From Candidatus Doudnabacteria bacterium (GTDB taxonomy: Bacteria > Patescibacteriota > Doudnabacteria > UBA920): DNA of 64,000 bases. The position numbers and the translations under genes were made by a program. Below are positions 32,571 through 46,171 of this stretch, piece after piece (position 1 is the first letter of the stretch; each line of letters begins with the position of its first letter). The DNA lies in contig CAWINB010000001.1 in the NCBI GenBank assembly GCA_963837465.1, positions 297,036 through 361,035 of the forward strand. The letters are read 5' to 3'. The notes below the pieces were generated by a model. The model ran no database searches, was not told where the DNA came from, and was given only the letters and a program-made list of their open reading frames with translations.

Positions 32571-34808
32571 CTATCTGTCAAAATTCCTTCTCGGGGGTCT
32601 GGAGCCGCTGTGGCCGCCGGAAGATGGACGGCGGGGAGGACCGTCGAAGCCGCGGTCATTGGCCGAGGCGAGTTGCTCGGGGGTTGGGGCCGAGGCAAAA
32701 GGTTTGTGGGTTAGGTTAATGCGGCCTTGGTCGTCTATTTCACTGACCTGGACTTTTAAAGTGTCGCCAATATGGACTACATCTTCCACTTTGTTGACGC
32801 GGTAGTTGGCCAGTTGGGAAATGTGGACCAGGCCGTCTTTGCCGGGCAGGACTTCCACAAACGCGCCAAAATCCATAATGCGCACGACTTTGCCTTCGTA
32901 AATTTCACCGGGCTCAACTTCGCGCACAATATCCTGAATCCACTTCACGGCCTTGGCCGAACTTTCGGCATCGGTGGAAGTAACCATCACCAAGCCGTCG
33001 TCTTCTATATCTATTTTCACGCCAGGACATTTGGCTATAATTTCATTGATAATTTTGCCGCCGCTGCCAATAACTTCGCGGATTTTATCCGGCTTAATCT
33101 TAAAGCTGGTAATGCGCGGCGCGTACGGGGAGAGTTCATGGCGCGGCGCGGCCAGGGTTTCTGTCATTTTGGAAAGGATGTGGACGCGCGCCGGTTTGGC
33201 CTGCTGCAGAGCTTTGTCCAAAATATCCGCGCTCAAACCTTTAACTTTCATGTCCAGCTGCAAAGCGGTAACGCCCTGGTCTGAACCGGTAACTTTAAAA
33301 TCCATATGGCCGTTAAAATCTTCTATACCGGCAATGTCGGTAAGCACTTTAAAGTTGGAAGGGTTGGTTTCATCCATAACCAAACCCATGGCGCAGCCGC
33401 CGATAATGTGTTTAATGGGAACTCCCGCGTCCATTAAAGCCAAAGTTGAGCCGCAGGTGGATGCCATGGAGGTGGAACCGTTGGACGAAAGCACTTCACT
33501 GACCAGGCGCATAGTGTAAGGAAAAGATTCCTGGTCGGGCAGCACCACTTCCACGGCGCGTTCGGCCAGCATGCCGTGGCCGATTTCGCGGCGGCCGGCG
33601 CCTCTTAAAGGCGCGACTTCGCCAACGGAATAGCCGGGCATATTGTAGTGGTGGATATAGCGCTTGGCGCGACCGTCAGCCGGGTCTTCCATGCCATCTA
33701 ACAACTGTTCGTCACCTTTACTGCCAAGAGTAACTGTAGTTAAAGCCTGGGTTTCGCCGCGGGTAAACAAAGCGCTGCCGTGGGTGCGCGGCAAAATGCC
33801 GACTTCGCAGGAAATAGGACGCGTCTCAGTAAGCGAACGTCCGTCTACCCGGCGTTCGTGCTCCAGAATCTGCTTCTGCTGGTATTTTTTTAAAACTTTA
33901 TCCACAGCCCCGGCCGCTTCCTTGGCAACATCCACGCCCTGAATTTCCCCCAACGCCAAAACCGCGGCGTCGGAAATTTCTTTGGTCAGAACGCTGACGT
34001 TTATATCGCGCTGGGCTTTTATCTTAACGTAAACCGCCGCTTCAATTTTATCGGCCGTTAAAAGTTCCTTGACTTTGGCCATAACGGCATCGTGCGGCTT
34101 TATAATTACAGGCTCGGCTTTGGGAATGTTGATTTGCTTGGCAAACTCAATTTGCGTTTTTACCAGAACATCCAGATATTGCTGGGCGAATTTTATGCCT
34201 TCCACGATTTCCGCTTCCGTAACCAGCATGGCGCCCATTTCAACCATAATAATGTGGTCGCCGGTGCCGCAGACGATTAAATCCATAGTGGATGCTACCT
34301 GCCGCTCGCGCGTGGGGTTTACCACATATTGTCCGTCTATTTTCCCCACCCGCACGCCGGCAACCGGGCCGTCGTAGGGAATTCTGGAAATGGCAAGGGC
34401 CATGGAAGCCGCGGTGACGGATAAAATGTCCGGCTCGTTGACGCCGTCGTAAGAAAGGATGGTGGCGATAATCTGCACGTCGTTGCGCATGCCGTCGGGA
34501 AACATGGGCCGAAGCGTGCGGTCTATAACCCGTCCTTTTAAGACGGCATCATCGGTAGCGCGGCCTTCGCGCTTGACCCAGCGCGAGCCTTTTATTTTTC
34601 CGGCCGCGTAGAGTTTTTCTTCGTAATCAACCAGCAGCGGGAAATAATCTATGTTGCTTCTCACGCCTTTGCTCATCATGGCCGTGGCCAGAACCACGGT
34701 ATCGCCCACGCGCGCCAAAACCGCGCCGTCGGCCTGCCCGGCCAGCTTGCCGGTCTCAAACACAAAATCGGCTTCGCCTATTTTGCACGAAATCTTTTTA
34801 CTTTCCAT
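32571..34808 (-). CDS. pnp: Polyribonucleotide nucleotidyltransferase (PNPase)
   Basis: Two RNase PH domains, KH, S1, RG-rich tail; 745 aa. Confidence 0.95.
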
Positions 34809-34896
34809 TTATTATCCCTTTTGTTCCGGGATGATGCGTGTGTTGACGATGACTTTCAAAAAGCCGTCGCTGTACCCACCCACCATCTTTTGGAAC

Positions 34897-35295
34897 TTAA
34901 TTATTACGTTTTTCCAAAACTTCCTTAATTTTAGCTAATATATCGTCCGGTGTAAAGTAGGCTTTGACCATGTATTCGTCGGCCCTAAGGGACTGCGTCC
35001 TTAAAATATCCTTGTTGCTCCAAAGATTGCTCAGGACAATAACCGGCAGGTCGGAAATTTTTTTGTCCGGATTATCGCGGATTTTTTCCAAAACTTCGAA
35101 ACCGTCCACTTCGGGCATCATTAAGTCCAGTAAAATTATGTCCGGCAGCTCCTGGAACACCATTTCCAGGCCCTGTTTGCCGTCCGGGGCATGGCGGACG
35201 ACAAAACCGGCGGCTTGCAGCTTATGCGCCACAATATCGGCCATAGCCGCGTCATCCTCCATAATAATTACATTTTTGTTTGTTTGTTTAAGCAT
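34897..35295 (-). CDS. Single-domain response regulator (CheY-like receiver)
   Basis: ...IIMEDD...DIILLDLMMPEVDGFEVLEKIR...; the phospho-acceptor Asp is the first D of LLDLMMP. Confidence 0.8.
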   Translation of the reverse strand: MLKQTNKNVIIMEDDAAMADIVAHKLQAAGFVVRHAPDGKQGLEMVFQELPDIILLDLMMPEVDGFEVLEKIRDNPDKKISDLPVIVLSNLWSNKDILRTQSLRADEYMVKAYFTPDDILAKIKEVLEKRNN

Positions 35296-35423
35296 TATTT
35301 TTAACTAACCAGCCAATATTATAGCATAAATTGGTAAAATATGGAAAATGTGATATAATTCTGGCTACAATAAGAAAAAATTAAAATTACTTGCGGAAAT
35401 TAAAATTAACATAAAAAATCAAA

Positions 35424-37994
35424 GTGGGAGAAGTAACTAGTTTTGCCAAAAATTTAGCGGAATTTGATAATCATAAAGAAGTTATCCGCCTGGAAAATGA
35501 AGGCTTGGGCGTTGTCGGATTTATCGCCATCCACACCCTTAAAAATTCTTATCCTTCTTTGGGCGCGACCAGGGTCTGGAATTATAAAACGGAAACCGAG
35601 GCGCTTAGTGACGCTTTGAGGCTTTCGCGGCTGATGTCCAACAAATCCCTTTACGCGGACTTGCCTTACGGAGGAGCAAAAGCGGCTCTAATGGTTTCCA
35701 AAGACAACCCTCCCGACCGCGAAGAACTTTTTTCCTGGTACGCGGGTGAGATAAATAAATTAGACGGGAGGTTTATTACCGGTTCCGATGTGGGAATTCA
35801 GGAACAAGACGTGGTTTTAATGAGCGGCCTGAGCAAATTTGTTATAGGAGGCAATGTCCCCGCCGGATACTATACCGCTCTTGGCGTGTTAAATGGCATT
35901 GAAACCGCCCTGGAAATTATTTACGGTTCGCCGGAAATTTCCGGAAAAACTTTCGCGGTGCAGGGTCTGGGAAAAACGGGACTGGAATTAGTCAAGCTGC
36001 TTTACGGCAAAGGCGGAAAAATTACAGTCACGGACGCTGACTCTAAAAAAATTGCCCAGGTTCTGGAAATGTTTCCCGGCGTTTCGGCCGTGAATGTTTA
36101 CGGCATATACAGCCAGAAAGTTGATATCTTCTGTCCTTGCGCCCTCCACAACAGCATTGATTCCCTAAGCGCGCCGCTGTTGCGGTGCGCCGCCATTGTC
36201 GGCAGCGCGAACAATCAAATGGAAAGCCCTGAGGTTGAACTATTGGTGCGTAATCGGGGAATTTTATACGCCATAGACTACATTGTAAACAACGGCGGCT
36301 TTATTAGCGTGGTAGACCAATATCAAAACGGAACCCATGACGATGCCCGGATAAAACAAAAGCTGCTGATAGTAAAAAATAAATTAAAAAAAATATTAAC
36401 CGGGGAAGAGCCCAAACCAAGCCCCGCCGCGACGACCGATGGTTCCGGAGTTTCCGTGTCCGGCGATACCGCGTTGTTCCCAAAAAAAACCCTTCCTGGC
36501 GACATTGCGGAACTTATTGGTTCTTTTAAAACTCAAAAGGAAGCTGTTTGGATTGAGCGCGGGGAAAGGCAAGCGCTAAAATTATTCGGCGAAATGTCCA
36601 GGCGGGTACCGGCTTACCGGGATTTCCTTAAAAAAAACGGGGTGAACGCGGAAACTGTAAACAGCATCGACGATTTTAAACATCTGCCGCTGACCAATAA
36701 GGAAAATTACCTGCTTTCGTACCCGTTGGAAAGCTTATGCTGGGACGGCAAATTCAAAGGGCAAAAGTGGACCATCTCATCCACATCCGGCTCAACCGGC
36801 GAACCTTTTTATTTCCCCAGAACCGGTTTTCAGGATGAGCAATTCGGACTTACGGCCGGGGCCTGCTTGGTCGATTTTTTCGAAATTGACAAAAAAACCA
36901 CCCTTTTTCTGGATTGCTTTGCCTTAGGAGTCTGGATTGGAGGAGTATTTATGTACCAGGCAATAAAGTATTTAATTGACCAAGGACGTTATCCCCTTTC
37001 TGTTATTACCCCGGGCGCGGACAAAGCCGAAGCCATAAAAGCTATAAAAAATTTGGCGCCGAAATTCGACCAGATAATTATAGGCGGCTACGCTCCGTTG
37101 GTTAAAGATTTAATAGATGTGGGCGGGGCCCAGGGCCTAAGGTGGAACGATTACAGCGTAAAATATTTTTTCGCGGCCGAAGGCTTCACCGAAGGCTACC
37201 GCGACTATATTGTAAAAAACGGCGGGGCGAAAAATATTTTTACCGATACCATTAACCACTACGGCACAGCTGACTTGGGGACAATGGCGCACGAAACCCC
37301 GGTAAGCATTTTAATCAGGCGCCTGGCCGCGGCCGACCAAAATCTGGCCCAGGCTTTATTTTCCCAGACCCACAAACAACCCACTTTAACCCAGTACATT
37401 CCGGAGCTTTATTATTTTGAACAGGCGGACAACCGGGTAGTCTGCTCATCTTCCGGGGGAATGCCGTTAATAAGGTATGATTTAAAAGACCGCGGCGGGG
37501 TTAAAAAACTGGAGCAAATTAAGCAAATTCTTAAAGAGCGAAATATTGACATCGAGCGGGAAATAAAAAAATCCGGTTTGGAAAAATTTTTATGGCAATT
37601 GCCTTTTGTCTATCTTTTTGAAAGGGATGATCTTACCGCCAGCATCTACAGCGTAAACATTTATCCCCAAAGCATCCGCAAAGTTCTGGAAAAGCGGGAA
37701 TTTGAAAAATTTTTGACAGGTAAATTCAGTATGCTGGTGGACTATGACCAGGGACAGAACCAGTTCCTGCAAATTAACCTGGAGTTGAAGAGCAATGTTG
37801 ATTCCGGGGAAGGTCTGGAAAAAAACCTTCTTGGCTCCGTTGTGGATCAGCTGCTTTTGGAAAATTCGGAGTGGAGGGATTTTTACGCCGACCAGGGCAT
37901 ACGCCATAAAATAATACCCCAATTGCTGTTTTGGCCCTATCAGGACCCTAAATATTTTAAGCCGGGCGCGAAACAAAAATGGGTGAAAAAATAA
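35424..37994 (+). CDS. Fusion protein: Glu/Leu/Phe/Val-type amino-acid dehydrogenase (N-terminal ~330 aa) plus PaaK/F390-synthetase-like adenylate-forming enzyme (C-terminal ~500 aa)
   Basis: N-terminal LPYGGAKAAL (dehydrogenase lysine motif) and Rossmann VQGLGKTG; C-terminal PaaK-family TSGSTGEP P-loop with the characteristic N-terminal VPAYRDFL...DFKHLPLTNKENY; GTG start. Confidence 0.7.
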   Translation: MGEVTSFAKNLAEFDNHKEVIRLENEGLGVVGFIAIHTLKNSYPSLGATRVWNYKTETEALSDALRLSRLMSNKSLYADLPYGGAKAALMVSKDNPPDREELFSWYAGEINKLDGRFITGSDVGIQEQDVVLMSGLSKFVIGGNVPAGYYTALGVLNGIETALEIIYGSPEISGKTFAVQGLGKTGLELVKLLYGKGGKITVTDADSKKIAQVLEMFPGVSAVNVYGIYSQKVDIFCPCALHNSIDSLSAPLLRCAAIVGSANNQMESPEVELLVRNRGILYAIDYIVNNGGFISVVDQYQNGTHDDARIKQKLLIVKNKLKKILTGEEPKPSPAATTDGSGVSVSGDTALFPKKTLPGDIAELIGSFKTQKEAVWIERGERQALKLFGEMSRRVPAYRDFLKKNGVNAETVNSIDDFKHLPLTNKENYLLSYPLESLCWDGKFKGQKWTISSTSGSTGEPFYFPRTGFQDEQFGLTAGACLVDFFEIDKKTTLFLDCFALGVWIGGVFMYQAIKYLIDQGRYPLSVITPGADKAEAIKAIKNLAPKFDQIIIGGYAPLVKDLIDVGGAQGLRWNDYSVKYFFAAEGFTEGYRDYIVKNGGAKNIFTDTINHYGTADLGTMAHETPVSILIRRLAAADQNLAQALFSQTHKQPTLTQYIPELYYFEQADNRVVCSSSGGMPLIRYDLKDRGGVKKLEQIKQILKERNIDIEREIKKSGLEKFLWQLPFVYLFERDDLTASIYSVNIYPQSIRKVLEKREFEKFLTGKFSMLVDYDQGQNQFLQINLELKSNVDSGEGLEKNLLGSVVDQLLLENSEWRDFYADQGIRHKIIPQLLFWPYQDPKYFKPGAKQKWVKK

Positions 37995-39145
37995 CAACTA
38001 TGCGAGAAACTTTCAACAGCCAATCTTGGCAACCTGTAAAAAAAACTTTTGAAGAAACAAGCGACTTGATAAAAAACGAGCCCGGTGTTTTTGTGACCGA
38101 CCAGTATAAAAAAAATTTGGAAGAACTTTTTTTGCTTCGCAACCCCAAGTACCGGTTCAACAAAAACTACGCGGAGGATTTTAAAAAGTTCGCGGGGCGG
38201 CAATTTGGAGATGAGCCGGATAAGGCCGGAACCTGGTTTTACTATCCCTGGTCAAAGCGTTTAGTCCGCTTTTTGCCTGATGACACGCACCAGGAACTGC
38301 GCACCGGCAGGAACCGCAACTTAATCACCCAGGAGGAGCAAAAAAACTACTACAACTCAAAAATTGCCGTTTTGGGTATGAGCGTTGGCAGCCATGTGGC
38401 CGCTACAATCGCGATGATTGGCGGTTCAAAAAATATGAAGCTGGCGGATCCGGACAGTTATTCCGGGGACAACCTCAACAGAGTGCGCACGGGGTTTGGG
38501 GATGTCGGTTTAAAAAAAGCAGTGGTCGTCGCCAGAAAATTATTTGAAGTTGACCCCTACGCCAACCACAGTATTTACACGGAAGGGCTTAATGAAAACA
38601 ACGCGGAAGAAATTCTCGAGCACAGCGAAATTATAATAGAGGAAATGGACAATCTCTACTGGAAACTTAAAATCCGGGAACTGGCGCGCGCCAGGGGAAT
38701 TCCCGTAATAATGGGTACCGACAACGGGGACGGTATGATAGTTGATATTGAACGCTTTGACCTTGATAAATCTTATCCCATCCTCCATGGCAGTATCGGA
38801 GATTTAACCGCGGAAAAATGCAAACAGGTTGCTCCGGAAGACCTGCCGGCAGTTTACGCCAAAGTCGCGGGCGCCGAACTGGCTGTTCCCCGGATGCTGG
38901 AATCGGTCGCCCAAGTCGGCAAGACGCTTTATTCCTGGCCCCAGCTGGGCACGGCGGCCAACCTTTGCGGCACAGTCGTGGCCTATCTGACGCGGCGGAT
39001 AATATTAAAGTCTCCCAATATTAAATCGGGGCGCTATGAAGTAAATTTGGACTCCATTTTTGAATCGGACTATAATTCCCCCCAAACAGCCCGGACTCGC
39101 GAGGAACAAAAAAACAATTTTTTAAAGGAAATCGGTTTTAAATAA
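37979..39145 (+). CDS. E1-like (ThiF/MoeB/MccB-family) adenylyltransferase with ~110-aa N-terminal extension
   Basis: IAVLGMSVGSHVAATIAMIGG...LADPDSYSGDNLNR (Rossmann plus ThiF motif); the N-terminal extension resembles a peptide-clamp or RRE-type add-on. Confidence 0.65.
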   Translation: MGEKITTMRETFNSQSWQPVKKTFEETSDLIKNEPGVFVTDQYKKNLEELFLLRNPKYRFNKNYAEDFKKFAGRQFGDEPDKAGTWFYYPWSKRLVRFLPDDTHQELRTGRNRNLITQEEQKNYYNSKIAVLGMSVGSHVAATIAMIGGSKNMKLADPDSYSGDNLNRVRTGFGDVGLKKAVVVARKLFEVDPYANHSIYTEGLNENNAEEILEHSEIIIEEMDNLYWKLKIRELARARGIPVIMGTDNGDGMIVDIERFDLDKSYPILHGSIGDLTAEKCKQVAPEDLPAVYAKVAGAELAVPRMLESVAQVGKTLYSWPQLGTAANLCGTVVAYLTRRIILKSPNIKSGRYEVNLDSIFESDYNSPQTARTREEQKNNFLKEIGFK

Positions 39146-39151
39146 AAAGTT

Positions 39152-40174
39152 ATGAAACAAAATTATCAGGCGTGGGAAATTAATCCCGGCGACTTCCAGA
39201 AACAAAAAACCATTACGGACCAATTGTGGTTTTTGGCCGGCTTTGCGGTGCTGGCCCCGTCCGGGCACAACAGCCAACCGTGGCAATTTGACGCGCGCGA
39301 TAACATAATAGATATCCGCGCGGATATGTCCCGGGCTCTGCCGGCCAGCGACCCCAATTGCCGCCAGCTTTATATCAGCCTTGGTTGCGCCATGGAAAAT
39401 TTGTTGATTGCCGCGGAAGGTTATCGGTTTCACTATGATATAGCTTATTTCCCCAAAGATGGGGTTGCCGCCAGTATAACTTTTTCAGGAAGCGGCGAGC
39501 AGGGGGTTATTGAACCCAAAAGCGATATAATTGCCGTGACAAAACGCCATACCAACCGCAATCCCTATACCACTAAAATGCCCGAGCAAACTTTTTTACA
39601 AAAAATAAAAAGCCTGGGAACCGGCAATGTACAGATAACTCTGGTCAGCCAACAAACACAGAGAGAAAAAATTTCCGACATTGTGAGCGAAGCTTTAATT
39701 ACGACTATGGACAATAAAAGTTTCCGTATGGAGCTTTCGCGTTATCTTAAGCCAAATAACACCAACTCCCCCATTGGTATGACCGGAGCAGGCTTTTTAA
39801 TGCCGACCGCGGTTTCTTTTATCGCGCCCGTGCTGATAAAATTTGTAAATGTCAATAAATTAAGTAAAAAAGAAGATGTCGCTTTGCTTAAAGAACATAC
39901 GCCTGTTTTTGGTGTTATTTCCACCTTGGCGGACGAACCAAAAGCCTGGCTAAAAGCAGGCCAACTGTACGAACGCGTTGCTGTTGAGGCGGAAAAAGGA
40001 AATATCAAAACCCATCCTTTGGCCGCGGCTATTGAAACCGGAAAATACTGCGGGCAATTACAAAATGCTTTGGAAATTCCTTCCCGCCCCCAGGTTTTTT
40101 TTAGATTGGGATATACCGATAAACTTGTTCCATATGCCCCAAGATTACCAATCAGTAAATGCAGGGTTATATGA
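39152..40174 (+). CDS. Tandem nitroreductase-fold FMN oxidoreductase (SagB/McbC/Acg-like), 340 aa
   Basis: LAPSGHNSQPWQF nitroreductase signature in the N-terminal half; second degenerate half. Confidence 0.6.
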   Translation: MKQNYQAWEINPGDFQKQKTITDQLWFLAGFAVLAPSGHNSQPWQFDARDNIIDIRADMSRALPASDPNCRQLYISLGCAMENLLIAAEGYRFHYDIAYFPKDGVAASITFSGSGEQGVIEPKSDIIAVTKRHTNRNPYTTKMPEQTFLQKIKSLGTGNVQITLVSQQTQREKISDIVSEALITTMDNKSFRMELSRYLKPNNTNSPIGMTGAGFLMPTAVSFIAPVLIKFVNVNKLSKKEDVALLKEHTPVFGVISTLADEPKAWLKAGQLYERVAVEAEKGNIKTHPLAAAIETGKYCGQLQNALEIPSRPQVFFRLGYTDKLVPYAPRLPISKCRVI

Positions 40175-41040
40175 ATAAAGAGGATAATTTAGCCAAATCG
40201 CTTGGGCTGCCCGTACACATTGGGCAAATGCCTATTAACGGCCATACTATAAATTACTGCGTTGCCGGAAAAGGGCCGCCCATCTTACTTATTCACGGTG
40301 CCAATTTCGGCTGGGGAGTTTGGTATCCCAATATCGCCGAATTAGCCAAGCGCTTTACTGTTTACGCCATAGATTTGCCCGGCGCGGGACGCTCAACCCG
40401 AATTGACTATGCCAAAATGGATCCGGAAAAAGATTTATTAGTTGTTGTGGAAAAATTTGTTGATAATTTAGAGCTTCAAAATTTTGATATAATAGGCTGC
40501 TCAATCGGCGGTTGGATAGCTTTACAGCTGGCATTAAGGAAACCTGACAGGGTTAATAGAATAATAATCGAAAATGGAGTCGGGTTTGCCGATTTTATGG
40601 GTATTTCCGATAAAATAATCGGCTTTTACCCTTTGGCAAAATTAGTTTCCAAAACTCTGATAAACCCGGCAAACAAAAAAAGGGTGGAAAAATTTTTGCG
40701 CGGAACTTTTTATTATAAGAACCTGTCCTTATCGAAAGAATTCCTCGAATATTTTTTGGAAACAATGGAAACCTCTCACGGGCTTCTGCTGATTAGCCGT
40801 TTAACTTCACTGCATAGCCAATTAAATCTAGAAAAAAAACTTCCTATTATTACTCACAAAACTTTAGTCATTTGGGGGAGAGACGATAAAATTATGCCTT
40901 TAAAAAAAAATGCGCGTAATTTTAAATTACTGTCCAAAGCGACAATCAAGATAATCAGCAATACGGGCCACACCCCTTCGTTGGAAAATCCTCAAGAATT
41001 TAACAGGCTTGTTAATGATTTTTTAGTTAATTATGAATAG
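40159..41040 (+). CDS. Alpha/beta-fold hydrolase
   Basis: PILLIHGANFGWGVW... nucleophile elbow GCSIGGW; 293 aa. Confidence 0.7.
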   Translation: MQGYMNKEDNLAKSLGLPVHIGQMPINGHTINYCVAGKGPPILLIHGANFGWGVWYPNIAELAKRFTVYAIDLPGAGRSTRIDYAKMDPEKDLLVVVEKFVDNLELQNFDIIGCSIGGWIALQLALRKPDRVNRIIIENGVGFADFMGISDKIIGFYPLAKLVSKTLINPANKKRVEKFLRGTFYYKNLSLSKEFLEYFLETMETSHGLLLISRLTSLHSQLNLEKKLPIITHKTLVIWGRDDKIMPLKKNARNFKLLSKATIKIISNTGHTPSLENPQEFNRLVNDFLVNYE

Positions 41041-42688
41041 CATTATCTCAAACTTTACCCAACTCCTGCTCATTATAGTATTGGTTATCAATATCCTATT
41101 GGCTTTTATCGTGTACAGAAGCAACAGGCATAGCGCCACCAATATTATTTTTATACTTCTTAGTATTGTTATTTCAATATGGCTGGTAATTATAAATGAA
41201 GCCGCGATACTATCATCCCCATTAATAATTTTGGTTTATACCAGGTTTGCCGTATTTTTTGCGGTACCTTTAAGTGTCTTATTTTTCCTTCTCGCCCATA
41301 CGCTCCCCAGCCCCACGCTATTATTAAGCAAAAAACGTTTACGATGGTTGCTGATTGGCACTCTTTTAATGATGGCATTTACCTTGTCGCCTTACGTTTT
41401 TAAAGCCGTAGAAATACAGGGCCAAAACATAAAAAGTATCCCTGGAGCAGGAATACCTTTCTTCGCCATTTTTACAAGCTTTTTCAGTTTGGCTGCTATT
41501 TATGTCCTGGTAAAAAAAGTTAAAAATTCCACTGGCGAAGTCAAACAACAAACGGCATTAATGATGCGGGGCATCCTGTTAATGCTGGGCCTGATTATTA
41601 CCACAATAATGCTTCCGGTTATTTTCTTTCAGAATCAGGCATTTATTCCTTTATCACCTGCCTATGTACTTATTTTTCTAGGAATGACAGCTTATGCCGT
41701 TGTTAAAAATCATCTATTCAACCTAAAGGTCATTGCTACTGAGGCATTCACCTTGGTTTTATTGACCGTTCTGTTCTCACAGATGATTATTGTCGCCACA
41801 ATCGGACAAAAAATTCTGGATTTTTTTGTTTTCATTATCACCGCTATTTTCGCCGGATTACTTATCCAGAGCGTCAAGCGTGAAATACAGCAGCGTGAAC
41901 AGTTGGAAATCTTGACCGGGCAATTGGAGGATGCCAATTACAAGCTTAAAAATCTGGACCAGGCCAGGGCCGAGTTTATTACCATTGCTTCGCATCAGTT
42001 GCGCACGCCTCCGGCTACCATTAAGTGGTATCTGGCTTCCATTTTGGGTGGCGATTACGGAAAGGTCCCGGCAAAAATACTGGAGCAATTGATAAAAACC
42101 GAAAACACCAACAACCACCAGATTTCCCTTATTGAAGATATGCTGAACGTTTCGCGCATTGAACGGGGCAAAATGGAATTTTTATTTGAACCGGTTAACG
42201 TGGAAGAACTGGCGCGTTTTTCCTACGAACAACTTTTGCCCATTGCCGGGGACAAAAAACTTAAACTGAGCTATCAGCCGCCGGCAAAACCGCTGCCGGA
42301 AATTATGGCCGACAAAGAAAAACTCCGGCAGGTTATGAATAATTTAATAGACAACGCCCTGAAATACACCAGAAAAGGCACCGTGGACGTTAGCCTGTTT
42401 TTAGAAGGCGATGAAATAAAATTCCAGGTCAAAGACAGCGGCAAGGGCATAAGCAAACAAGACGCCGACTCTATTTTCCAAAAATACAGCCGCGGCAAGG
42501 AATCGGTCAAGCAAAGCGCCGGCCTTGGCCTTGGGCTTTACGTGGCCAAAATTATTATTGACCAGCATAAAGGAAAAATTTGGGCCGAAAGCCGGGGGGA
42601 AGGCCAGGGTTCCATATTCGCTTTCAGCCTGCCTGTTAACAGCGGGCTTAAACAAACCACGCTGGTAGATTTGTCAAAAACGAATTAA
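41033..42688 (+). CDS. Membrane sensor histidine kinase
   Basis: About 7 N-terminal transmembrane helices; HisKA ASHQLRTPPATI; HATPase_c N/G boxes (LIDNALKYT, GLGLGLYVAK). Confidence 0.85.
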   Translation: MNSIISNFTQLLLIIVLVINILLAFIVYRSNRHSATNIIFILLSIVISIWLVIINEAAILSSPLIILVYTRFAVFFAVPLSVLFFLLAHTLPSPTLLLSKKRLRWLLIGTLLMMAFTLSPYVFKAVEIQGQNIKSIPGAGIPFFAIFTSFFSLAAIYVLVKKVKNSTGEVKQQTALMMRGILLMLGLIITTIMLPVIFFQNQAFIPLSPAYVLIFLGMTAYAVVKNHLFNLKVIATEAFTLVLLTVLFSQMIIVATIGQKILDFFVFIITAIFAGLLIQSVKREIQQREQLEILTGQLEDANYKLKNLDQARAEFITIASHQLRTPPATIKWYLASILGGDYGKVPAKILEQLIKTENTNNHQISLIEDMLNVSRIERGKMEFLFEPVNVEELARFSYEQLLPIAGDKKLKLSYQPPAKPLPEIMADKEKLRQVMNNLIDNALKYTRKGTVDVSLFLEGDEIKFQVKDSGKGISKQDADSIFQKYSRGKESVKQSAGLGLGLYVAKIIIDQHKGKIWAESRGEGQGSIFAFSLPVNSGLKQTTLVDLSKTN

Positions 42689-42693
42689 TACTC

Positions 42694-42730
42694 AAAAAAC
42701 ACCCTGGCTTGATTCAAGGGTGTTTTTGTT
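42694..42730. terminator. Bidirectional Rho-independent terminator
   Basis: aaaaacaccctggcttgattcaagggtgtttttgtt; T-runs on both strands. Confidence 0.65.
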
Positions 42731-42757
42731 GTAACTTTCAGTTCAGAACTGATTTGA

Positions 42758-43165
42758 TTATTTTTGCCCGGGCTTTATGCTTCCCAAAATTTCTTCTTCA
42801 AAATGGAGCAAAAACTGGATTGGATCCGGAGTGCTGCCGAATAAAATATGTTCGACGCTGTTGCGCTGGCCGCGGTTTTGGGCGCTGCCCACGCCTTTTT
42901 TCTGGAACCAGTCTTCCCAGGCCTTACTGAATTTTTTATAGCCTTCGCTGTGCTCGCCGCCGTATTTTTTATAAATTTGCCGGTACTTGGTTTCGTCGCA
43001 AATGTTGATAAAATCGCTTTTTTGTTCCAAGGTTAAAAAACCATTTTTTTGCAAAGAGTGTTTTATGGTCTGAATCTCTTTATTTACGTAGACAGCCTGA
43101 CAAATTTCCTTGCCTAATTGCGTCCACTCTTTATCAAATTCGTCAAAATTGGAATTATTAGGCAT
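42758..43165 (-). CDS. Hypothetical protein (135 aa)
   Basis: ORF only. Confidence 0.4.
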   Translation of the reverse strand: MPNNSNFDEFDKEWTQLGKEICQAVYVNKEIQTIKHSLQKNGFLTLEQKSDFINICDETKYRQIYKKYGGEHSEGYKKFSKAWEDWFQKKGVGSAQNRGQRNSVEHILFGSTPDPIQFLLHFEEEILGSIKPGQK

Positions 43166-43174
43166 TAAGAGATG

Positions 43175-43447
43175 CTATTCGGTAATTTTAAGCTTAAGCT
43201 TTTCTGCCAGCTTTTCGTAACGCTTCTGGTCTTCGCTCTTTAGATAGCGCAGCAGGCGGCGGCGGTTGCCGACCATCTTAAGCAAGCCGCGGCGGCTGTG
43301 GTTGTCTTTGCGGTGGATTTTTAAGTGCTCGCTGACCTGTTCGATTTCCCTGGTCAAAATGGCAATCTGAACCTCCGGACTGCCGGTATCGTCTTTATGC
43401 GTCTGAAACTTTTTAATTATATTGTTCTTCTCTTTGGGAGTAAGCAT
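43175..43447 (-). CDS. rpsO: 30S ribosomal protein S15
   Basis: [35 protein letters not shown]...[17 protein letters not shown]. Confidence 0.95.
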
Positions 43448-43624: not shown

Positions 43625-46171
43625 TTAGTAGCGTGTATTGCTTGCCAACTTCTCCTGCATAGTCTTTAAATCACTTTGCAGTTGTTGCCAACGTTGATAA
43701 ACTTGGGCTTGCGGTTCTGTCAGCTGTTGATCGCGCAAGACCTGTAGCTCTGCCCGTAAATTTTCTAAAAATTGGTCGACGTTTTGGCTTTTTGACATTA
43801 TTTCCAATTGCCGCGAGTCAAACCGCAGACCGTTTTTGACTTTTTCGGCAAGCAAAGTTGCCAATTCCCCGACTCTATCCAAGTCCGCTTTTGCTTGGTC
43901 TTGTTTTTGAACTTTAGCATCCCAAGCATTTAAGTCCATTTCCATAGCGGCCACATCTTTACGGGCCTGGGCTATTTTTCCAGTTAAGTCAACTCTGATT
44001 TTCCTGCTTTCAAAATCGCTTATTTTTTTATTTAAAGCATCGCGCCGTTGTATTAAATCGCTTCTTGAGAGATACTTTTGTTTAAAACCCTCTATTGGCT
44101 GTTCGCCGCTGTCTCTTTGGGGTTGATAGCCCTCTATGGCACGGGTGGCGTTTGTATAATTTTCCCGGGCCATCGCATCTTCAATATAAATTTGGCTGGA
44201 ATTTGTACCGGCGCTGTCGTAAATCCTGATTGTCGCGGCGTGATTGGCAACGCGAGCCAAACTTCTTTCGATATCGCTCATACTGCCAAAACTGCGGGCC
44301 ACTTCATTATTGGCCTTAACCTGTCGGGCTTGCCGGAGCAAGTCTCGTGTCCGGGGTCCGTTTTCCAAACTACGCAAGTCGAGTTTGGCCCAGCCAGCGT
44401 CCATTCCCACACCAACTTTTTCCAAAACTTGTTGGGTTTTTGTCTGAGCATCCATTACCGCTCGGTTAATAATCCCTCTGACATTGCTTAAATGACCGGC
44501 TTTGGCAAAAACCTGGTAAACAGATCTTGGCATTGTCAGGTATTGATTATCTATGTAAGAAGGTTCCAAATGCCGCTGCCGCATTTCCGCCGGGATATGG
44601 GCATTAATCTGGCCAATAGCGACATAGTTTCGACTACCTGACAAAAAAGCTTTTTTATCTGGAACCTCTTCTAAAGCCTGATAAAAAGCATTGAGCAGCG
44701 CCTGCCACGCTTCCAGCTGCTGCTTAACGTAGCCAGGCTGGATTATGTCTGTCTTTATTGGTTGGCTTTCGATCCCCCTATCTGAATAAGAAATTTTTTC
44801 CATCCCAAAAGCTGTGACTCCGCCCCAACTATTTTCCACGCCTTGCGAAATAACGTCAAACTTGCCGACTATGCCAGTATTATCCAATGACTGATGGGCT
44901 CCGCGGTTCGCGAACATATCGCGGGCACTTGCCACACCCATTTCCCGCCCCACATTATCTAAAAGGTCATTCAAATTTCGGCTAAACAGGGGAGGACCCG
45001 CTTGCTGCGAATACTGATCTTGAAAATTTTCAGTCCACTTTTTATCAGTTTCATGAATTTTATCTATAACTCCACTGAGTTGCGATCTTAGCTTTCGCTC
45101 CAAATCTTCCTCGGCTTTTTTTGCCGCTTTTACCTGGTTGCGACCGGGTTCAAAAACCGTATCAAAATACCGGATTTGATCTTTTACTTCCTGTAAATTC
45201 ACAACTCCAAGCCTGGCAGCTTCCCTTTCTTCGTATTCGCCGCTTATCTTATTTCCCAAAGCTTCCAAAAACGACTTTTTTACTTCGGCTCGTCCAATAA
45301 CTTTTTCGCCTTCCAAAACATTGTGGGACAAAAAATCCACACGCCCCAATGAAGCGAAATTTATAACTTCATTTTTGTAAGAACGCCATAAATGTTCTGT
45401 ATCCTGACTCACAAGCTTTTTAGCTGCCGCCTGCCTTTTGCCTTCGGTGGAATTGGGAAAAAGCTCTTCGTACTGTTTACGAAAAGCCGCCTGTCTAGCT
45501 TCCAAAGCGGAAATTAAAGTATCAAAGGTTATTGCCCGCCTGCCACTTGGAGTTTCAGGAATATCCGCCCCCGCTCTGGCGGCAACGGCGGCATCCGCCT
45601 TAGTCCTGGGTCCACCGTGGTCAAGGTTGTGCCGTTTTGGGACGCGAGGCTGTTCTTGTCCGGGCTCGCCGCTGGGATGGGCTTTTAAAAATTCCAAAGC
45701 CTGATGCTTGGACCCTAAACCTTTTTCTGTTTGAGGATTCAGCTCTGCGGCGCTTTCGGCCATTCCCTTTTCCGCCTCCAAGTAAGCCTGGGCTTCTTCA
45801 CCTTGGGGAAGCTTCGCGACCAGACTTTCTACGGAACTAATACCCTGCTCACTTAAAAATTGTTCAGGGTCTAAGCCGACATCTCTTAAGATACGCTTAA
45901 AAGCGGAATCCGGACTATTTAGTTGTTCTTTCAGAATTCTTTCATGGTCAGCAAAGCTGGTTTTGTGTCCGCGGCGTTTTTGCAGGATTCGTTTTTTTGC
46001 TTCGCGTACTTCCCGTAACCCTTCTACAATTTCCCCTACCTTTATGATGCTCGATTTTAGCTCGTCAATCCTTTGGTCTGCCTGTTCCTGAACAGACCTT
46101 TCTTTTTCCTCTGTAGCAACATTGGCGCGTTCCCGGGCCATCGCGGCTAAACGTTGTTCTATTGAACCCAT
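43625..46171 (-). CDS. Large coiled-coil-rich hypothetical protein (848 aa)
   Basis: Long Glu/Lys/Arg-rich heptad-like segments; no enzymatic motif recognised. Confidence 0.5.
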   Translation of the reverse strand: MGSIEQRLAAMARERANVATEEKERSVQEQADQRIDELKSSIIKVGEIVEGLREVREAKKRILQKRRGHKTSFADHERILKEQLNSPDSAFKRILRDVGLDPEQFLSEQGISSVESLVAKLPQGEEAQAYLEAEKGMAESAAELNPQTEKGLGSKHQALEFLKAHPSGEPGQEQPRVPKRHNLDHGGPRTKADAAVAARAGADIPETPSGRRAITFDTLISALEARQAAFRKQYEELFPNSTEGKRQAAAKKLVSQDTEHLWRSYKNEVINFASLGRVDFLSHNVLEGEKVIGRAEVKKSFLEALGNKISGEYEEREAARLGVVNLQEVKDQIRYFDTVFEPGRNQVKAAKKAEEDLERKLRSQLSGVIDKIHETDKKWTENFQDQYSQQAGPPLFSRNLNDLLDNVGREMGVASARDMFANRGAHQSLDNTGIVGKFDVISQGVENSWGGVTAFGMEKISYSDRGIESQPIKTDIIQPGYVKQQLEAWQALLNAFYQALEEVPDKKAFLSGSRNYVAIGQINAHIPAEMRQRHLEPSYIDNQYLTMPRSVYQVFAKAGHLSNVRGIINRAVMDAQTKTQQVLEKVGVGMDAGWAKLDLRSLENGPRTRDLLRQARQVKANNEVARSFGSMSDIERSLARVANHAATIRIYDSAGTNSSQIYIEDAMARENYTNATRAIEGYQPQRDSGEQPIEGFKQKYLSRSDLIQRRDALNKKISDFESRKIRVDLTGKIAQARKDVAAMEMDLNAWDAKVQKQDQAKADLDRVGELATLLAEKVKNGLRFDSRQLEIMSKSQNVDQFLENLRAELQVLRDQQLTEPQAQVYQRWQQLQSDLKTMQEKLASNTRY

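What the first reader, a model, noticed from the sequence alone, without database searches (positions are those of the whole stretch)
34897..43165. An ~8-kb accessory block splits the normally contiguous rpsO-pnp pair
rpsO (43175-43447) and pnp (32571-34808) are both on the minus strand and in the conserved order. Between them lie a response regulator, a tightly packed plus-strand five-gene operon with overlapping starts and stops (35424-42688) that ends in a bidirectional terminator, and a 135-aa hypothetical. In most bacteria rpsO and pnp are adjacent and co-transcribed. This arrangement marks the block as an insertion or lineage-specific island and frames the operon as one functional unit.
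Basis: partly seen in the sequence, partly recalled or inferred. Interest (0 to 1): 0.85.

Follow-up and report, generated by a model that had tools for sequence, protein, structure and literature searches.

The report
Oxazolone-type signalling cassette splitting rpsO-pnp
A 7.8-kb gene cassette inserted between rpsO and pnp of a Doudnabacteria (candidate phyla radiation) genome is one copy of a widespread, apparently undescribed module that couples oxazolone-type small-molecule enzymes to a membrane sensor kinase, and sister species carry swapped versions of it, as quorum-sensing loci do.

Summary
The window comes from a Candidatus Doudnabacteria genome. In 70 of 72 other loci holding both genes, rpsO and pnp lie at most 1.9 kb apart; here they are 8.4 kb apart. 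Six related Doudnabacteria species have rpsO-hyp135-pnp contiguous, so the 135-aa gene is ancestral. The insertion is the response regulator plus the plus-strand operon (34897-42688), placed upstream of a conserved pnp leader hairpin. It has no integrase, flanking repeats or deviant composition.

The operon is a conserved Patescibacteria module. It contains an amino-acid-deaminating enzyme, a PaaK-fold adenylating ligase, a ThiF-like cyclase of the Rv1355c/TrzS (oxazolone synthetase) type, a flavin oxidase and a 7TM histidine kinase. The hydrolase and a receiver-only regulator are optional. In 26 full-context metagenomic loci, ThiF accompanies the ligase in 26 and the kinase in 23.

Sister species carry divergent, mosaic variants in the same slot. 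The kinase core and regulator are conserved (63-80%). The sensor half and the enzymes are swapped (20-51%, including a tyrosine ammonia-lyase in place of the dehydrogenase).

My best reading is synthesis and sensing of an amino-acid-derived oxazolone-type signal. The chemistry and the signalling role are inferred, not shown. I rate it a new variant of a known kind.

The parts
32571..34808 (-). pnp (polynucleotide phosphorylase), the conserved downstream flank
   Evidence: NCBIfam PRK11824 908 bits, TIGR03591 907.9 bits. 82-83% identical to L007 and L002.
34823..34896 (-). pnp leader hairpin, which marks the pnp-side boundary of the insertion
   Evidence: Free energy -30 kcal/mol, z -4.84 against shuffles. 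Conserved in L007, L002, L001, L003 and in island-free L012, with both-sided changes in 8 of 22 pairs. The RR stop codon abuts it.
34897..35295 (-). Receiver-only response regulator (132 aa), divergent from the operon and directly upstream of the pnp leader
   Evidence: PF00072 76.5 bits with no output domain. Acidic pocket EDD and LDLMMP phospho-acceptor context present. 63-72% identical to the RR next to pnp in L007 and L002, and also present in L001 and L003.
35296..35423 (.). Divergent control region with back-to-back promoter-like sites
   Evidence: Plus strand 35331-35359, TTGGTA-17-TATAAT with TG. Minus strand 35347-35318, TTTCCA-18-TATAAT with TG. These are consensus matches only.
35424..36413 (+). 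g1 N-terminal domain: ELFV-family amino-acid dehydrogenase, closest to tryptophan dehydrogenase ScyB
   Evidence: PF02812 and PF00208. NF035922 ScyB 218 bits, below the 600-bit cutoff. A separate gene in L007 and L081. Replaced by a tyrosine ammonia-lyase in L002 and by an aminotransferase in L085 and others.
36504..37994 (+). g1 C-terminal domain: PaaK-fold adenylate-forming ligase (LIG), fused to the dehydrogenase by a low-complexity linker
   Evidence: Motifs STSGSTGEP, YGTAD, RYDLKD and C-terminal GAKQK. AF2 pLDDT 87. Foldseek best match is PaaK1 2y27, TM 0.67/0.78, with ClxA 9s45 also matched. The family has 513 clusters at E<=1e-30.
37979..39145 (+). g2: ThiF/E1-like adenylating cyclase of the Rv1355c (TrzS) type
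   Evidence: NF005901 Rv1355c family 300.8 bits over its N-terminal half, against about 56 bits for ordinary ThiF. 37% identical over 296 aa to an annotated Rv1355c family protein. Shared motifs GxSVG, LADxD, NLNR, EExD, ERFD, PILHG, WPQL.
39152..40174 (+). [quoted passage not shown]
   Evidence: NF047509 222 bits, above the 199-bit cutoff. Rv1355c C-terminal half 66 bits. PDB best match Acg 2ymv. APSGHNSQPW and RHTNR motifs present.
40159..41040 (+). g4: alpha/beta-fold hydrolase (ABH), an optional module component
   Evidence: PF00561 97 bits. GCSIG nucleophile elbow. Present in 7 of 26 full-context loci, in L081 (60% identical) and in L083, but absent from L007 and L002.
41033..41932 (+). 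g5 sensor half: 7TM input domain of the histidine kinase, the swapped part
   Evidence: PF16927 HisKA_7TM. 22-26% identical to L007 over aa 1-200, but 68% to L081 and 46% to the Liptonbacteria locus L083.
41933..42688 (+). g5 catalytic half: HisKA and HATPase_c kinase core, the conserved part
   Evidence: PF00512 and PF02518. H-box SHQLRTP. 74-80% identical to L007 and 62-72% to L002 from about aa 300 onward.
42694..42727 (.). A-run/hairpin/T-run between the convergent g5 and hyp135 stop codons; a candidate bidirectional terminator and the rpsO-side boundary
   Evidence: Read directly from the sequence. The minus-strand reading was found by the scan at 42719-42702.
42758..43165 (-). hyp135: a conserved Doudnabacteria gene between rpsO and pnp; ancestral flank, not part of the island
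   Evidence: tblastn finds it (32-77% identical) directly between rpsO and pnp in island-free L004, L005, L006, L010, L012 and L013. No Pfam or NCBIfam hit.
43175..43447 (-). rpsO (ribosomal protein S15), the conserved upstream flank
   Evidence: TIGR00952 119.6 bits.

Best explanation
The block 34897-42688 is a lineage-specific insertion into the hyp135-pnp spacer of a Doudnabacteria chromosome. It is one copy of a conserved, recombining Patescibacteria module.

**Proposed pathway.**
1. A deaminating enzyme converts an amino acid, probably aromatic, into a carboxylic acid. Here it is a ScyB-like dehydrogenase. Elsewhere it is an aminotransferase or a tyrosine ammonia-lyase.
2. The PaaK-fold ligase, fused to the dehydrogenase here, adenylates that acid and joins it to an amino acid. 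This takes the place of the acyl-CoA-dependent N-acyltransferase of known oxazolone pathways.
3. The ThiF-like enzyme (g2) adenylates the resulting N-acyl amino acid and cyclises it to an oxazolone.
4. The flavin oxidase (g3) desaturates it. These two steps follow OxzB, TyzBC and TrzS.
5. The optional hydrolase (g4) tailors or opens the product.

**Proposed sensing.** The 7TM kinase encoded at the end of the operon senses this molecule or a close relative of it. It signals through the receiver-only regulator, which shares the divergent promoter region and now lies immediately upstream of the pnp leader.

**Shown.** The insertion, the conservation of the module, the family assignments and the domain-level cassette swapping.

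**Inferred.** The substrates, amide formation by the ligase, the oxazolone product, and that the kinase's ligand is the pathway product.
For: **Insertion.**
- rpsO-pnp gaps are at most 1.9 kb in 70 of 72 loci.
- rpsO-hyp135-pnp is contiguous in six related species.
- The species with an RR next to pnp are monophyletic.
- The pnp leader hairpin is retained on the pnp side.

**Module.**
- L081/L082, L083/L084 and L085 contain the same genes in other contexts.
- Among 26 metagenomic loci with full flanks, counts next to the ligase are ThiF 26, 7TM kinase 23, a deaminating enzyme 22, FDO 20, and all four in 17.
- Fusions DH-LIG, LIG-ThiF, ThiF-LIG and DH-LIG-ThiF exist.

**Chemistry.**
- g2 scores 300.8 bits on the Rv1355c-family model, against about 56 bits for ordinary ThiF. 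It shares motifs beyond the ATP site with an annotated Rv1355c family protein.
- g3 is an FDO sitting 6 nt downstream of g2.
- ThiF-plus-FDO pairs or fusions are experimentally shown oxazolone synthetases (PMC10404671, PMC12856293, bioRxiv 10.1101/2020.06.11.147165).
- The ligase has the PaaK fold and intact adenylation motifs. Among its weaker structural matches is ClxA, solved with 3-amino-4-hydroxybenzoic acid and its adenylate.
- The three alternative first enzymes (ScyB-like dehydrogenase, FlxA-like tyrosine ammonia-lyase at 623 bits, class I/II aminotransferase) would each yield an amino-acid-derived acid.

**Coupling to sensing.**
- The kinase is co-oriented and next to the enzymes in 23 of 26 loci.
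- In the same chromosomal slot of sister species, the RR (63-72%) and the kinase core (62-80%) are conserved. The sensor half (20-44%) and the enzymes (23-51%) are replaced, with a breakpoint near aa 300.
- The sensor halves are closer to those of other lineages than to those of sister species.
Against: - No product, substrate or ligand is known.
- The GNAT/AHL-synthase-like N-acyltransferase that defines known oxazolone clusters is absent. Amide formation by the ligase is an inference.
- g3 scores as Acg/Rv3131-type (222 bits), not as the Rv1355c-type oxidase domain (66 bits). It is only 28% identical over 115 aa to a TrzS-like oxidase domain.
- No protein reaches an NCBIfam equivalog cutoff except the Acg subfamily model.
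- The characterised oxidases use O2, and many Patescibacteria are thought to be anaerobic fermenters (my own knowledge).
- Sensor and enzymes do not co-vary strictly. Against L081, the sensor (68%), ligase (73%) and hydrolase (60%) travel together, while DH, ThiF and FDO are only 35-36% identical.
- A kinase that senses the pathway's substrate rather than its product would give the same genetic pattern.
- The regulator has no output domain, so the response is unknown.
- FDO was detected in only 20 of 26 loci and the RR in only 12 of 26. This was by single-query tblastn, which probably undercounts.
Confidence: 0.5

Rival explanations
1. Substrate-sensing conversion or detoxification operon. The 7TM kinase detects an external aromatic acid or amino acid, for example from a host cell. 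The enzymes activate and transform that compound for salvage or detoxification. No self-made signal is involved.
For: - PaaK-family enzymes are classically catabolic CoA ligases.
- The best hydrolase hits are meta-cleavage-product hydrolases such as HsaD and BphD.
- Co-replacement of the sensor domain and the enzymes is equally expected if the sensor recognises the substrate.
- A TrmB-type regulator sits next to some copies.
Against: - None of the contexts examined show a downstream catabolic pathway such as paa genes, ring cleavage or beta-oxidation.
- ThiF-plus-FDO pairs are known only from biosynthesis (PMC10404671, PMC12856293).
- The pathway starts from proteinogenic-type amino acids through three interchangeable deaminating enzymes. 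That looks like precursor supply rather than uptake of a xenobiotic.
Confidence: 0.2
2. Biosynthesis of an oxazolone-type metabolite with a non-signalling role, such as a membrane, stress-protective or antimicrobial compound. The adjacent two-component system merely regulates the operon in response to an unrelated cue.
For: - The roles proposed for the known tyrazolones and tryptazolones are lipid or stress-related and remain unresolved (PMC10404671; PMC12856293, discussion).
- N-acyl tyrosine derivatives can be antimicrobial (PMC12856293).
- The oxazolone ring is an electrophile, which could acylate targets (my own knowledge).
Against: - An unrelated cue does not explain why the sensor half of the kinase is exchanged together with the enzymes while the kinase core stays.
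- It also does not explain why the kinase is a near-obligate member of the module across lineages, in 23 of 26 loci.
Confidence: 0.2
3. Peptide or protein modification system. The E1-like g2 adenylates the C-terminus of a peptide or protein, as MccB, PaaA and ThiF/MoeB do. The oxidase acts as a SagB-like dehydrogenase and the ligase adds a cap.
For: - Most characterised ThiF-like enzymes act on proteins, peptides or tRNA (PMC12596934).
- E1-like plus nitroreductase-fold pairs occur in azoline peptide pathways (my own knowledge).
Against: - The gene junctions are -16, +6, -16 and -8 nt, and the only spacers are 128 and 69 nt. This leaves no room for a precursor gene in the window.
- No YcaO protein and no ubiquitin-like carrier lies in or beside the block.
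- g2 scores 300.8 bits on the small-molecule Rv1355c model, against 27-57 bits for ThiS-, MoaD- or tRNA-acting families.
Confidence: 0.05
4. Not an island. The block is ancestral to Doudnabacteria and was lost from some lineages, or the arrangement is an assembly artefact.
For: - Composition, GC3, codon usage and tetranucleotide profile do not differ from the rest of the window.
- There is no integrase, tRNA or flanking repeat at the ends.
Against: - Outgroups at three depths lack the block: L012; L004, L005, L006, L010 and L013; and L008, L009, L011 plus other phyla. The carriers form a single derived clade.
- Independent assemblies of sister species (L002, L007) show the same junctions.
- The window's fused protein exists as a public record on a 699,532-bp contig.
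Confidence: 0.04

Closest known systems
N-acyl oxazolone biosynthetic clusters: OxzAB (Pseudoalteromonas rubra), TyzACB (Rv2336-Rv2338c) and TrzAS (Rv1356c/Rv1355c) of Mycobacterium tuberculosis
   Same: - A ThiF-like ATP-dependent cyclase of the Rv1355c type sits next to a nitroreductase-superfamily flavin oxidase (g2 and g3, 6 nt apart).
- Aromatic amino-acid chemistry is implied by the ScyB-like dehydrogenase and, in L002, a tyrosine ammonia-lyase.
- In TyzBC the two enzymes are separate proteins, as they are here.
   Different: - There is no GNAT/AHL-synthase-like acyl-CoA N-acyltransferase. A PaaK-fold adenylating ligase and a deaminating enzyme stand in its place.
- The oxidase scores as Acg/Rv3131-type rather than as the Rv1355c-type domain.
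- A 7TM histidine kinase is a near-constant member of the module.
- The host is Patescibacteria, not Proteobacteria or Actinomycetota.
- The product is unknown.
Polymorphic quorum-sensing loci with specificity groups: agrBDCA of Staphylococcus and comQXPA of Bacillus (my own knowledge)
   Same: - Signal-production genes, a membrane sensor kinase and a response regulator are clustered.
- Between close relatives, the segment covering the production genes and the sensor half of the kinase is replaced. The kinase core and the regulator stay conserved.
   Different: - There is no peptide pheromone precursor. The putative signal is a small molecule made by soluble enzymes.
- The regulator has no DNA-binding domain.
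- Autoinduction and cross-inhibition are untested.
- The comparison is between species, not between strains of one species.
PaaK-family adenylate-forming enzymes: phenylacetate-CoA ligase PaaK1/2, BT_0428, and ClxA of closoxazole biosynthesis
   Same: - Same fold (TM 0.67-0.78 to 2y27 and 4rvo).
- P-loop STSGSTGEP, YGTAD and a C-terminal lysine motif.
- ClxA, solved with an aryl acid and its adenylate, is among the weaker structural matches (TM 0.55/0.67).
   Different: - Only 14-17% identical.
- About 60-70 residues longer.
- 31 bits on the PaaK equivalog models, against cutoffs of 646-700 bits.
- No Pfam family matches.
- Fused in this or other genomes to an ELFV dehydrogenase and/or a ThiF domain.
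The rpsO-pnp operon of E. coli and most bacteria
   Same: - Gene order and orientation are kept.
- pnp keeps a long leader hairpin. In E. coli such a hairpin is the RNase III site used for autoregulation (my own knowledge).
   Different: - The two genes are separated by 8.4 kb that includes an oppositely oriented operon and a terminator.
- Read-through from rpsO into pnp is therefore implausible.
- pnp now follows the response-regulator gene.

Membership tests
N-acyl oxazolone synthetase clusters (OxzAB/TyzACB/TrzAS) | ThiF-like ATP-dependent cyclase of the TrzS/TyzB/OxzB clade | tested here: met
   - g2 scores 300.8 bits (E 1.9e-89) on NF005901 positions 22-354, against at most 57 bits for other ThiF families.
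- The only plasmid tblastn hits are actinobacterial proteins annotated as Rv1355c family or ThiF family adenylyltransferase.
- g2 is 37% identical over 296 aa to one of them, with shared motifs LADxD, NLNR, EExD, ERFD, PILHG and WPQL.
N-acyl oxazolone synthetase clusters (OxzAB/TyzACB/TrzAS) | Flavin-dependent oxidase of the nitroreductase superfamily fused or adjacent to the ThiF gene | tested here: met
   - g3 starts 6 nt after g2.
- NF047509 222 bits, above the 199-bit cutoff.
- Caveat: it scores only 66 bits on the Rv1355c oxidase half, so it is Acg/Rv3131-like rather than the fused type.
N-acyl oxazolone synthetase clusters (OxzAB/TyzACB/TrzAS) | Adjacent GNAT/AHL-synthase-like acyl-CoA:amino acid N-acyltransferase (OxzA/TyzA/TrzA) | tested here: not met
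   - No gene between 34.8 and 43.2 kb has an acyltransferase domain.
- None was called in L081-L085.
- A PaaK-fold ligase occupies this role by inference.
N-acyl oxazolone synthetase clusters (OxzAB/TyzACB/TrzAS) | The product is a 4-arylidene N-acyl oxazolone | not testable with these tools
   Needs expression and LC-MS.
Phenylacetate-CoA ligase (PaaK) | PaaK fold and adenylation motifs | tested here: met
   - AF2 model pLDDT 87.
- Foldseek best match 2y27 at E 1.4e-22, TM 0.67/0.78.
- Adenylation motifs present.
Phenylacetate-CoA ligase (PaaK) | Equivalog-level sequence match | tested here: not met
   - TIGR02155 30.6 bits against a 646-bit cutoff.
- NF041878 31.6 bits against a 700-bit cutoff.
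- Only the N-terminal ~130 residues match.
Tryptophan dehydrogenase ScyB | Equivalog-level match to NF035922 | tested here: not met
   - 218 bits against a 600-bit cutoff.
- It is nevertheless the best-scoring model by a wide margin (next best 44.7 bits), and ELFV family membership is met.
Genomic island or integrative mobile element | Presence/absence polymorphism among close relatives at a fixed chromosomal site | tested here: met
   The block is absent from L004, L005, L006, L010, L012 and L013. It is present in variant form in L002 and L007.
Genomic island or integrative mobile element | Integrase, flanking direct repeats, or a tRNA target | tested here: not met
   - No meaningful flanking repeats.
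- No tRNA within 12 kb.
- The nearest tyrosine recombinase (54645-55814) is conserved next to RimK/rpsO in all relatives, including island-free ones.
Genomic island or integrative mobile element | Deviant base composition or codon usage | tested here: not met
   - GC3 z from -1.35 to +0.63.
- Synonymous-codon likelihood z from -0.92 to +1.39.
- Tetranucleotide distance z about -0.5.
Specificity-group (pherotype) quorum-sensing loci (agr/comQXP type) | A variable segment covers the signal-production genes and the sensor half of the kinase, while the kinase core and the regulator are conserved | tested here: met
   - Window against L007, per 50 aa of the kinase: 26, 22, 24, 24, 42, 40, then 76, 74, 76, 78, 80.
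- Enzymes 35-51% identical, RR 72%, pnp 83%.
- Sensor halves group with those of other lineages.
Specificity-group (pherotype) quorum-sensing loci (agr/comQXP type) | A secreted signal that activates the cognate kinase (autoinduction) | not testable with these tools
   No experimental data. The organism is uncultured.
Specificity-group (pherotype) quorum-sensing loci (agr/comQXP type) | A peptide pheromone precursor gene | tested here: not met
   The genes overlap or are 6 nt apart, and the spacers of 128 and 69 nt hold no ORF.
rpsO-pnp operon | rpsO immediately upstream of pnp and co-oriented | tested here: not met
   The gap is 8,366 nt, against at most 1.9 kb in 70 of 72 other loci.

The most novel reading that the evidence does not exclude
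Patescibacteria, for which I know of no dedicated cell-cell signalling system, carry a widespread, self-contained quorum-sensing-like cassette. Its autoinducer would be an amino-acid-derived oxazolone-type molecule made without acyl-CoA. The cassette would diversify into specificity groups by swapping the synthase genes together with the 7TM sensor domain. That would also give oxazolones, whose physiological role is an open question, a receptor and a function.
Probability: 0.3. Interest if true: 0.9.

Novelty: new variant of a known kind. Interest (0 to 1): 0.72.

Why it matters
**1. Oxazolones.**
- The physiological role of bacterial N-acyl oxazolones is described in the literature as a major unresolved question (PMC12856293).
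- Here the core oxazolone enzymes are hard-wired to a membrane sensor kinase across hundreds of protein clusters.
- The natural domain swaps pair sensor variants with enzyme variants. The "oxazolones are signals" idea therefore becomes testable with a defined candidate receptor.

**2. Patescibacteria.**
- These organisms have tiny genomes and are thought to live attached to hosts.
- A conserved, frequently exchanged biosynthesis-plus-sensing cassette is a concrete handle on how they communicate or sense partners.

**3. Enzymology.**
- A PaaK-fold ligase, fed by a dehydrogenase, aminotransferase or ammonia-lyase, would replace the acyl-CoA N-acyltransferase.
- This suggests a CoA-independent route to N-acyl amino acids.

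**4. Local effect on pnp.**
- The insertion uncouples pnp from rpsO.
- It places pnp behind the response-regulator gene while the leader hairpin is kept.

Tried and rejected
- **Mobile-element signatures.** The repeat search over 34-44 kb gave only short chance matches. No tRNA lies nearby.
- **The tyrosine recombinase at 54645-55814.** I considered it as the island's integrase. I rejected this because it is conserved next to RimK/rpsO in all relatives, with or without the island.
- **Composition, GC3, codon-usage and tetranucleotide tests.** They gave no signal for the block, so recent foreign origin cannot be argued from composition.
- **Rfam.** It found nothing in or beside the block.
- **Sequence search of the PDB.** It gave only weak, generic hits for g2, g3 and the ligase. 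A fold search was needed for the ligase.
- **Exact TrzS residue numbering (D217, R540).** A plasmid-borne Rv1355c family protein served as a proxy.
- **Literature searches.** Searches for the module (oxazolone + ThiF + nitroreductase; Patescibacteria + quorum sensing + histidine kinase; HisKA_7TM; candidate phyla radiation + biosynthetic gene cluster + ThiF) found no description of it. The library is incomplete.
- **RiPP or ubiquitin-like reading.** I rejected it for lack of any precursor gene, carrier protein or YcaO.
- **Fast divergence as the cause of the sensor/core identity break.** I rejected it because the sensor halves have closer relatives in other lineages than in sister species, and because gene content and order differ.
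- **One failed call.** I repeated it with an allowed alignment.

Full report
**1. What is in the sequence**

- pnp 32571-34808(-)
- a 132-aa response regulator (RR) 34897-35295(-)
- five plus-strand genes 35424-42688
- a 135-aa ORF, hyp135, 42758-43165(-)
- rpsO 43175-43447(-)

The plus-strand genes are joined by -16, +6, -16 and -8 nt. Pfam and NCBIfam confirm PNPase (908 bits) and S15 (119.6 bits).

Other local features:
- An A-run/hairpin/T-run at 42694-42727 lies between the convergent stop codons of the last operon gene and hyp135.
- The 128-nt RR/g1 spacer holds back-to-back promoter-like sites with an extended -10. These are consensus matches only.
- Nearly all other genes in the 64-kb window are on the minus strand.

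**2. Is it an insertion?**

The PNPase search places the window in Candidatus Doudnabacteria, within Patescibacteria, also called the candidate phyla radiation.

Evidence from relatives:
- Among 72 other loci with both genes, the rpsO-pnp gap is at most 1.9 kb in 70. The two exceptions, at 7.5 and 7.8 kb, are sister species L007 and L002.
- Six Doudnabacteria species with PNPase 70-77% identical (L004, L005, L006, L010, L012, L013) have rpsO-hyp135-pnp contiguous. hyp135 is therefore an ancestral resident and not part of the block.
- In a PNPase neighbour-joining tree, the five genomes with an RR abutting pnp (window, L001, L003, L007, L002) form one clade. Island-free L012 is its sister.

The pnp-side boundary is sharp. 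The RR stop codon abuts an approximately 74-nt leader hairpin (free energy -30 kcal/mol, z -4.84). That hairpin is conserved, with compensatory changes in 8 of 22 pairs, in island-bearing genomes and in island-free L012.

The block shows no signs of a mobile element:
- no flanking repeats
- no nearby tRNA
- no deviant GC3, codon usage or tetranucleotide profile
- the tyrosine recombinase at 54645-55814 is conserved beside RimK/rpsO in all relatives, so it is not the island's integrase

I conclude that this is a lineage-specific insertion of 34897-42688, either old or acquired from a donor of similar composition.

**3. What the genes are**

| Gene | Assignment | Key evidence |
|---|---|---|
| g1 (856 aa), N-terminal domain | ELFV amino-acid dehydrogenase (DH), closest to tryptophan dehydrogenase ScyB | 218 bits, below the cutoff |
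| g1, C-terminal ~490 aa | PaaK-fold adenylating ligase (LIG), joined to DH by a low-complexity linker | No Pfam hit; intact adenylation motifs; AF2 pLDDT 87; PaaK fold, TM 0.67-0.78; weaker match to the aryl-acid-adenylating ClxA, TM 0.55/0.67 |
| g2 | ThiF/E1-like enzyme | 300.8 bits on the N-terminal half of the Rv1355c family model, against at most 57 bits for ordinary ThiF, MoeB or TcdA models |
| g4 | Alpha/beta hydrolase (ABH) | PF00561, 97 bits |
| g5 | Kinase with a 7TM input domain (PF16927), HisKA and HATPase_c | |
| RR | Receiver domain only | PF00072, no output domain |

**4. The key lead from the literature**

[quoted passage not shown] It converts N-acyl tryptophan into an N-acyl tryptazolone. 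TyzB/TyzC and OxzB do the same for tyrosine or phenylalanine derivatives. (Sources: PMC12856293, PMC10404671, bioRxiv 10.1101/2020.06.11.147165, review PMC12596934.)

In those systems a GNAT/AHL-synthase-like acyltransferase makes the N-acyl amino acid from acyl-CoA.

g2 and g3 are a split version of this pair:
- g2 is 37% identical over 296 aa to an annotated Rv1355c family protein on a Mycolicibacterium plasmid.
- It shares the ATP-site motifs GxSVG, LADxD, NLNR and EExD.
- It also shares ERFD, PILHG and WPQL, which lie outside that set.

g3 is a more distant, Acg-type oxidase, 28% identical over 115 aa. No acyltransferase is present.

**5. The operon is a conserved module**

Homologues of the ligase are numerous. 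There are 2,156 hits in the word-indexed search and 513 clusters at 50% identity with E<=1e-30. The named ones are almost all Patescibacteria.

Their gene contexts repeat the set:
- A second Doudnabacteria-like genome (L081/L082) has TrmB, DH, FDO, LIG, ThiF, ABH, 7TM kinase, HIT, hyp138 and rpsO.
- A Liptonbacteria genome (L083/L084) has RR, RR, FDO, DH, LIG, ThiF, ABH and 7TM kinase, between prfA and rpmE.
- L085 has an aminotransferase, LIG, ThiF, FDO and 7TM kinase.

Among 26 metagenomic loci with enough flank, the partners found next to the ligase are:

| Partner | Loci (of 26) |
|---|---|
| ThiF | 26 |
| 7TM kinase | 23 |
| A deaminating enzyme | 22 (18 dehydrogenase, 4 aminotransferase) |
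| FDO | 20 |
| RR | 12 |
| Hydrolase | 7 |
| All four core partners | 17 |

A few of these loci are near-duplicates. Single-query tblastn probably undercounts the oxidase.

Gene order is shuffled between variants. Fusions DH-LIG, LIG-ThiF, ThiF-LIG and DH-LIG-ThiF exist.

In sister species L002 the first gene is an aromatic ammonia-lyase. It is closest to the flexirubin tyrosine ammonia-lyase FlxA (623 bits, against 482 for histidine ammonia-lyase). So three different enzymes, each of which would turn an amino acid into a carboxylic acid, occupy the same role.

**6. Cassette swapping in the same chromosomal slot**

Percent identity of window proteins to their counterparts in sister species:

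| Protein | L007 | L002 |
|---|---|---|
| pnp | 83 | 82 |
| rpsO | 90 | 81 |
| hyp135 | 75 | 65 |
| RR | 72 | 63 |
| DH | 40 | replaced by a lyase |
| LIG | 45 | 33 |
| ThiF | 51 | 37 |
| FDO | 35 | 23 |

Neither sister species has the hydrolase, and L002 has a different gene order.

Within the kinase, identity per 50 aa breaks sharply at the start of HisKA:
- Against L007: 26, 22, 24, 24, 42, 40, then 76, 74, 76, 78, 80.
- Against L002: 40, 20, 26, 24, 34, 44, then 72, 70, 62, 62, 66.

The two halves of the kinase have different relatives:
- The catalytic halves of the window, L007, L002 and L081 are 66-77% identical to one another.
- The window's sensor half is 68% identical to L081 and 46% to the Liptonbacteria copy, but under 30% to L007.
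- The L007 and L002 sensor halves have their best matches (41-52%) in unrelated metagenomic contigs.
- The enzymes are also mosaic. The window's ligase is closest to L081 (73%), while its ThiF is closest to L140, L099 and L100 (61-62%).

This is recombinational replacement of enzymes together with the sensor domain, on a conserved kinase-core and regulator chassis. From my own knowledge, this is the pattern of agr and comQXP specificity groups.

One caveat applies. Against L081, the sensor, ligase and hydrolase travel together (60-73%), while DH, ThiF and FDO do not (35-36%). The co-variation is therefore not all-or-none.

**7. Mechanism proposed**

1. An amino acid is deaminated to a 2-oxo or cinnamate-type acid.
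2. The ligase adenylates that acid and forms an amide with an amino acid.
3. g2 adenylates the N-acyl amino acid and cyclises it to an oxazolone.
4. g3 desaturates it.
5. g4 optionally tailors the product.
6. The 7TM kinase senses the product and phosphorylates the receiver-only regulator.

Steps 3 and 4 rest on homology to characterised enzymes. Steps 1, 2, 5 and 6 are inference from gene content, fusions and the swapping pattern.

Because many Patescibacteria are thought to lack CoA and fatty-acid metabolism (my own knowledge), a CoA-independent ligase fed by amino acids would be a sensible substitute for the acyl-CoA transferase.

A local consequence follows. Read-through from rpsO into pnp is blocked by the oppositely oriented operon and the terminator. 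pnp, with its retained leader hairpin, now follows the regulator gene with no terminator-like site between them.

**8. Rivals**

- A substrate-sensing conversion operon.
- A non-signalling metabolite whose operon is regulated by an unrelated cue.
- A peptide or protein modification system.
- Not an island at all.

The first two cannot be excluded with sequence data alone. The last two are contradicted by the data (see the rival entries).

**9. Novelty and verdict**

The searchable literature describes ThiF-FDO oxazolone synthetases with acyltransferases in Proteobacteria and Actinomycetota. It calls their role unresolved. I found no description of the ligase- and kinase-coupled Patescibacteria module.

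Every component belongs to a known family, so I rate this a new variant of a known kind.

- hyp135 is ancestral.
- The regulator belongs with the block.
- Composition is uninformative.

Noticed in passing
window 43625-53247: A second lineage-specific block lies on the other side of rpsO. It holds three large genes: 848 aa with no Pfam hit; 517 aa with a chitobiase C-terminal/Fn3-associated domain; and a 1768-aa surface protein with HYR and Ig-like domains. In relatives the order is recombinase-RimK-rpsO with nothing between. The 46-52 kb stretch is the only strong tetranucleotide outlier in the window (z 2.4-3.9). rpsO-hyp135 is thus an islet between two accessory blocks.
   Followed up: partly
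window 58699-58820 (-): A full-length match to the LOOT RNA family (RF03000), 84.9 bits against a gathering score of 46.4. It overlaps the 5' end of the ORF at 58287-58790.
   Followed up: no
window 42758-43165 (-): hyp135 is a gene without any Pfam or NCBIfam match. It is conserved (32-77% identical) directly between rpsO and pnp in one Doudnabacteria subclade. It is absent from more distant Doudnabacteria (L008, L009, L011). Its function is unknown, and its position suggests co-expression with rpsO.
   Followed up: partly
window 34823-34896 (-): The pnp leader forms a long hairpin (-30 kcal/mol, z -4.84) with covariation across six genomes. It resembles the RNase III-processed autoregulatory leader known from E. 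coli pnp (my own knowledge). No Rfam family matched it.
   Followed up: partly
L001 1-6400 and L003 1-6500: Two species nearest to the window in the PNPase tree keep the response regulator next to pnp but have different genes upstream. L001 has TPR, cupredoxin-like and unknown proteins. L003 has ROK kinase, GH1 fragments, an EamA transporter, a nucleotidyltransferase and a Trp-repressor-like protein. Both contigs end before rpsO is reached, so the module may lie further away or be lost. The slot behaves as a variable region.
   Followed up: partly
L081 1-16700: In another Doudnabacteria-like genome the module again sits beside hyp135-rpsO. It has a HIT-family gene inserted after the kinase. 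About 7 kb of other genes separate it from a 131-aa response regulator at the locus edge: a 1548-aa laminin-G protein, a GGACT-family gene and a TrmB-family gene.
   Followed up: no
L090, L091, L096 (about 13.5-16.8 kb) and L112 (14.5-19 kb): Some module copies carry two tandem 7TM histidine kinases with different sensor halves (identities to the window of 44% and 38%, and of 41% and 26%). This would fit sensing of more than one ligand.
   Followed up: no
window 39152-40174; L002 4315-5373: The modules use two different oxidase types. The window and L081 have Acg/Rv3131-like oxidases (222 and 188 bits on NF047509). L002 has an Rv1355c-type oxidase (187 bits on NF005901, against 139.5 on NF047509). 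If Acg-type oxidases work with ThiF cyclases here, that may bear on the unknown function of the mycobacterial Acg family.
   Followed up: partly
window 32172-32543 (-): The 123-aa ORF downstream of pnp has unusually low GC3 (z -2.2) and atypical codon usage (z -2.1). It has no family match and was found only in L007 among relatives.
   Followed up: no
protein P0086: One close ligase homologue (52% identical, 508 aa) is attributed to a Candidatus Jordarchaeaceae (Asgard archaeon) MAG, on a 3.8-kb contig. This could be a binning error or a cross-domain transfer.
   Followed up: no
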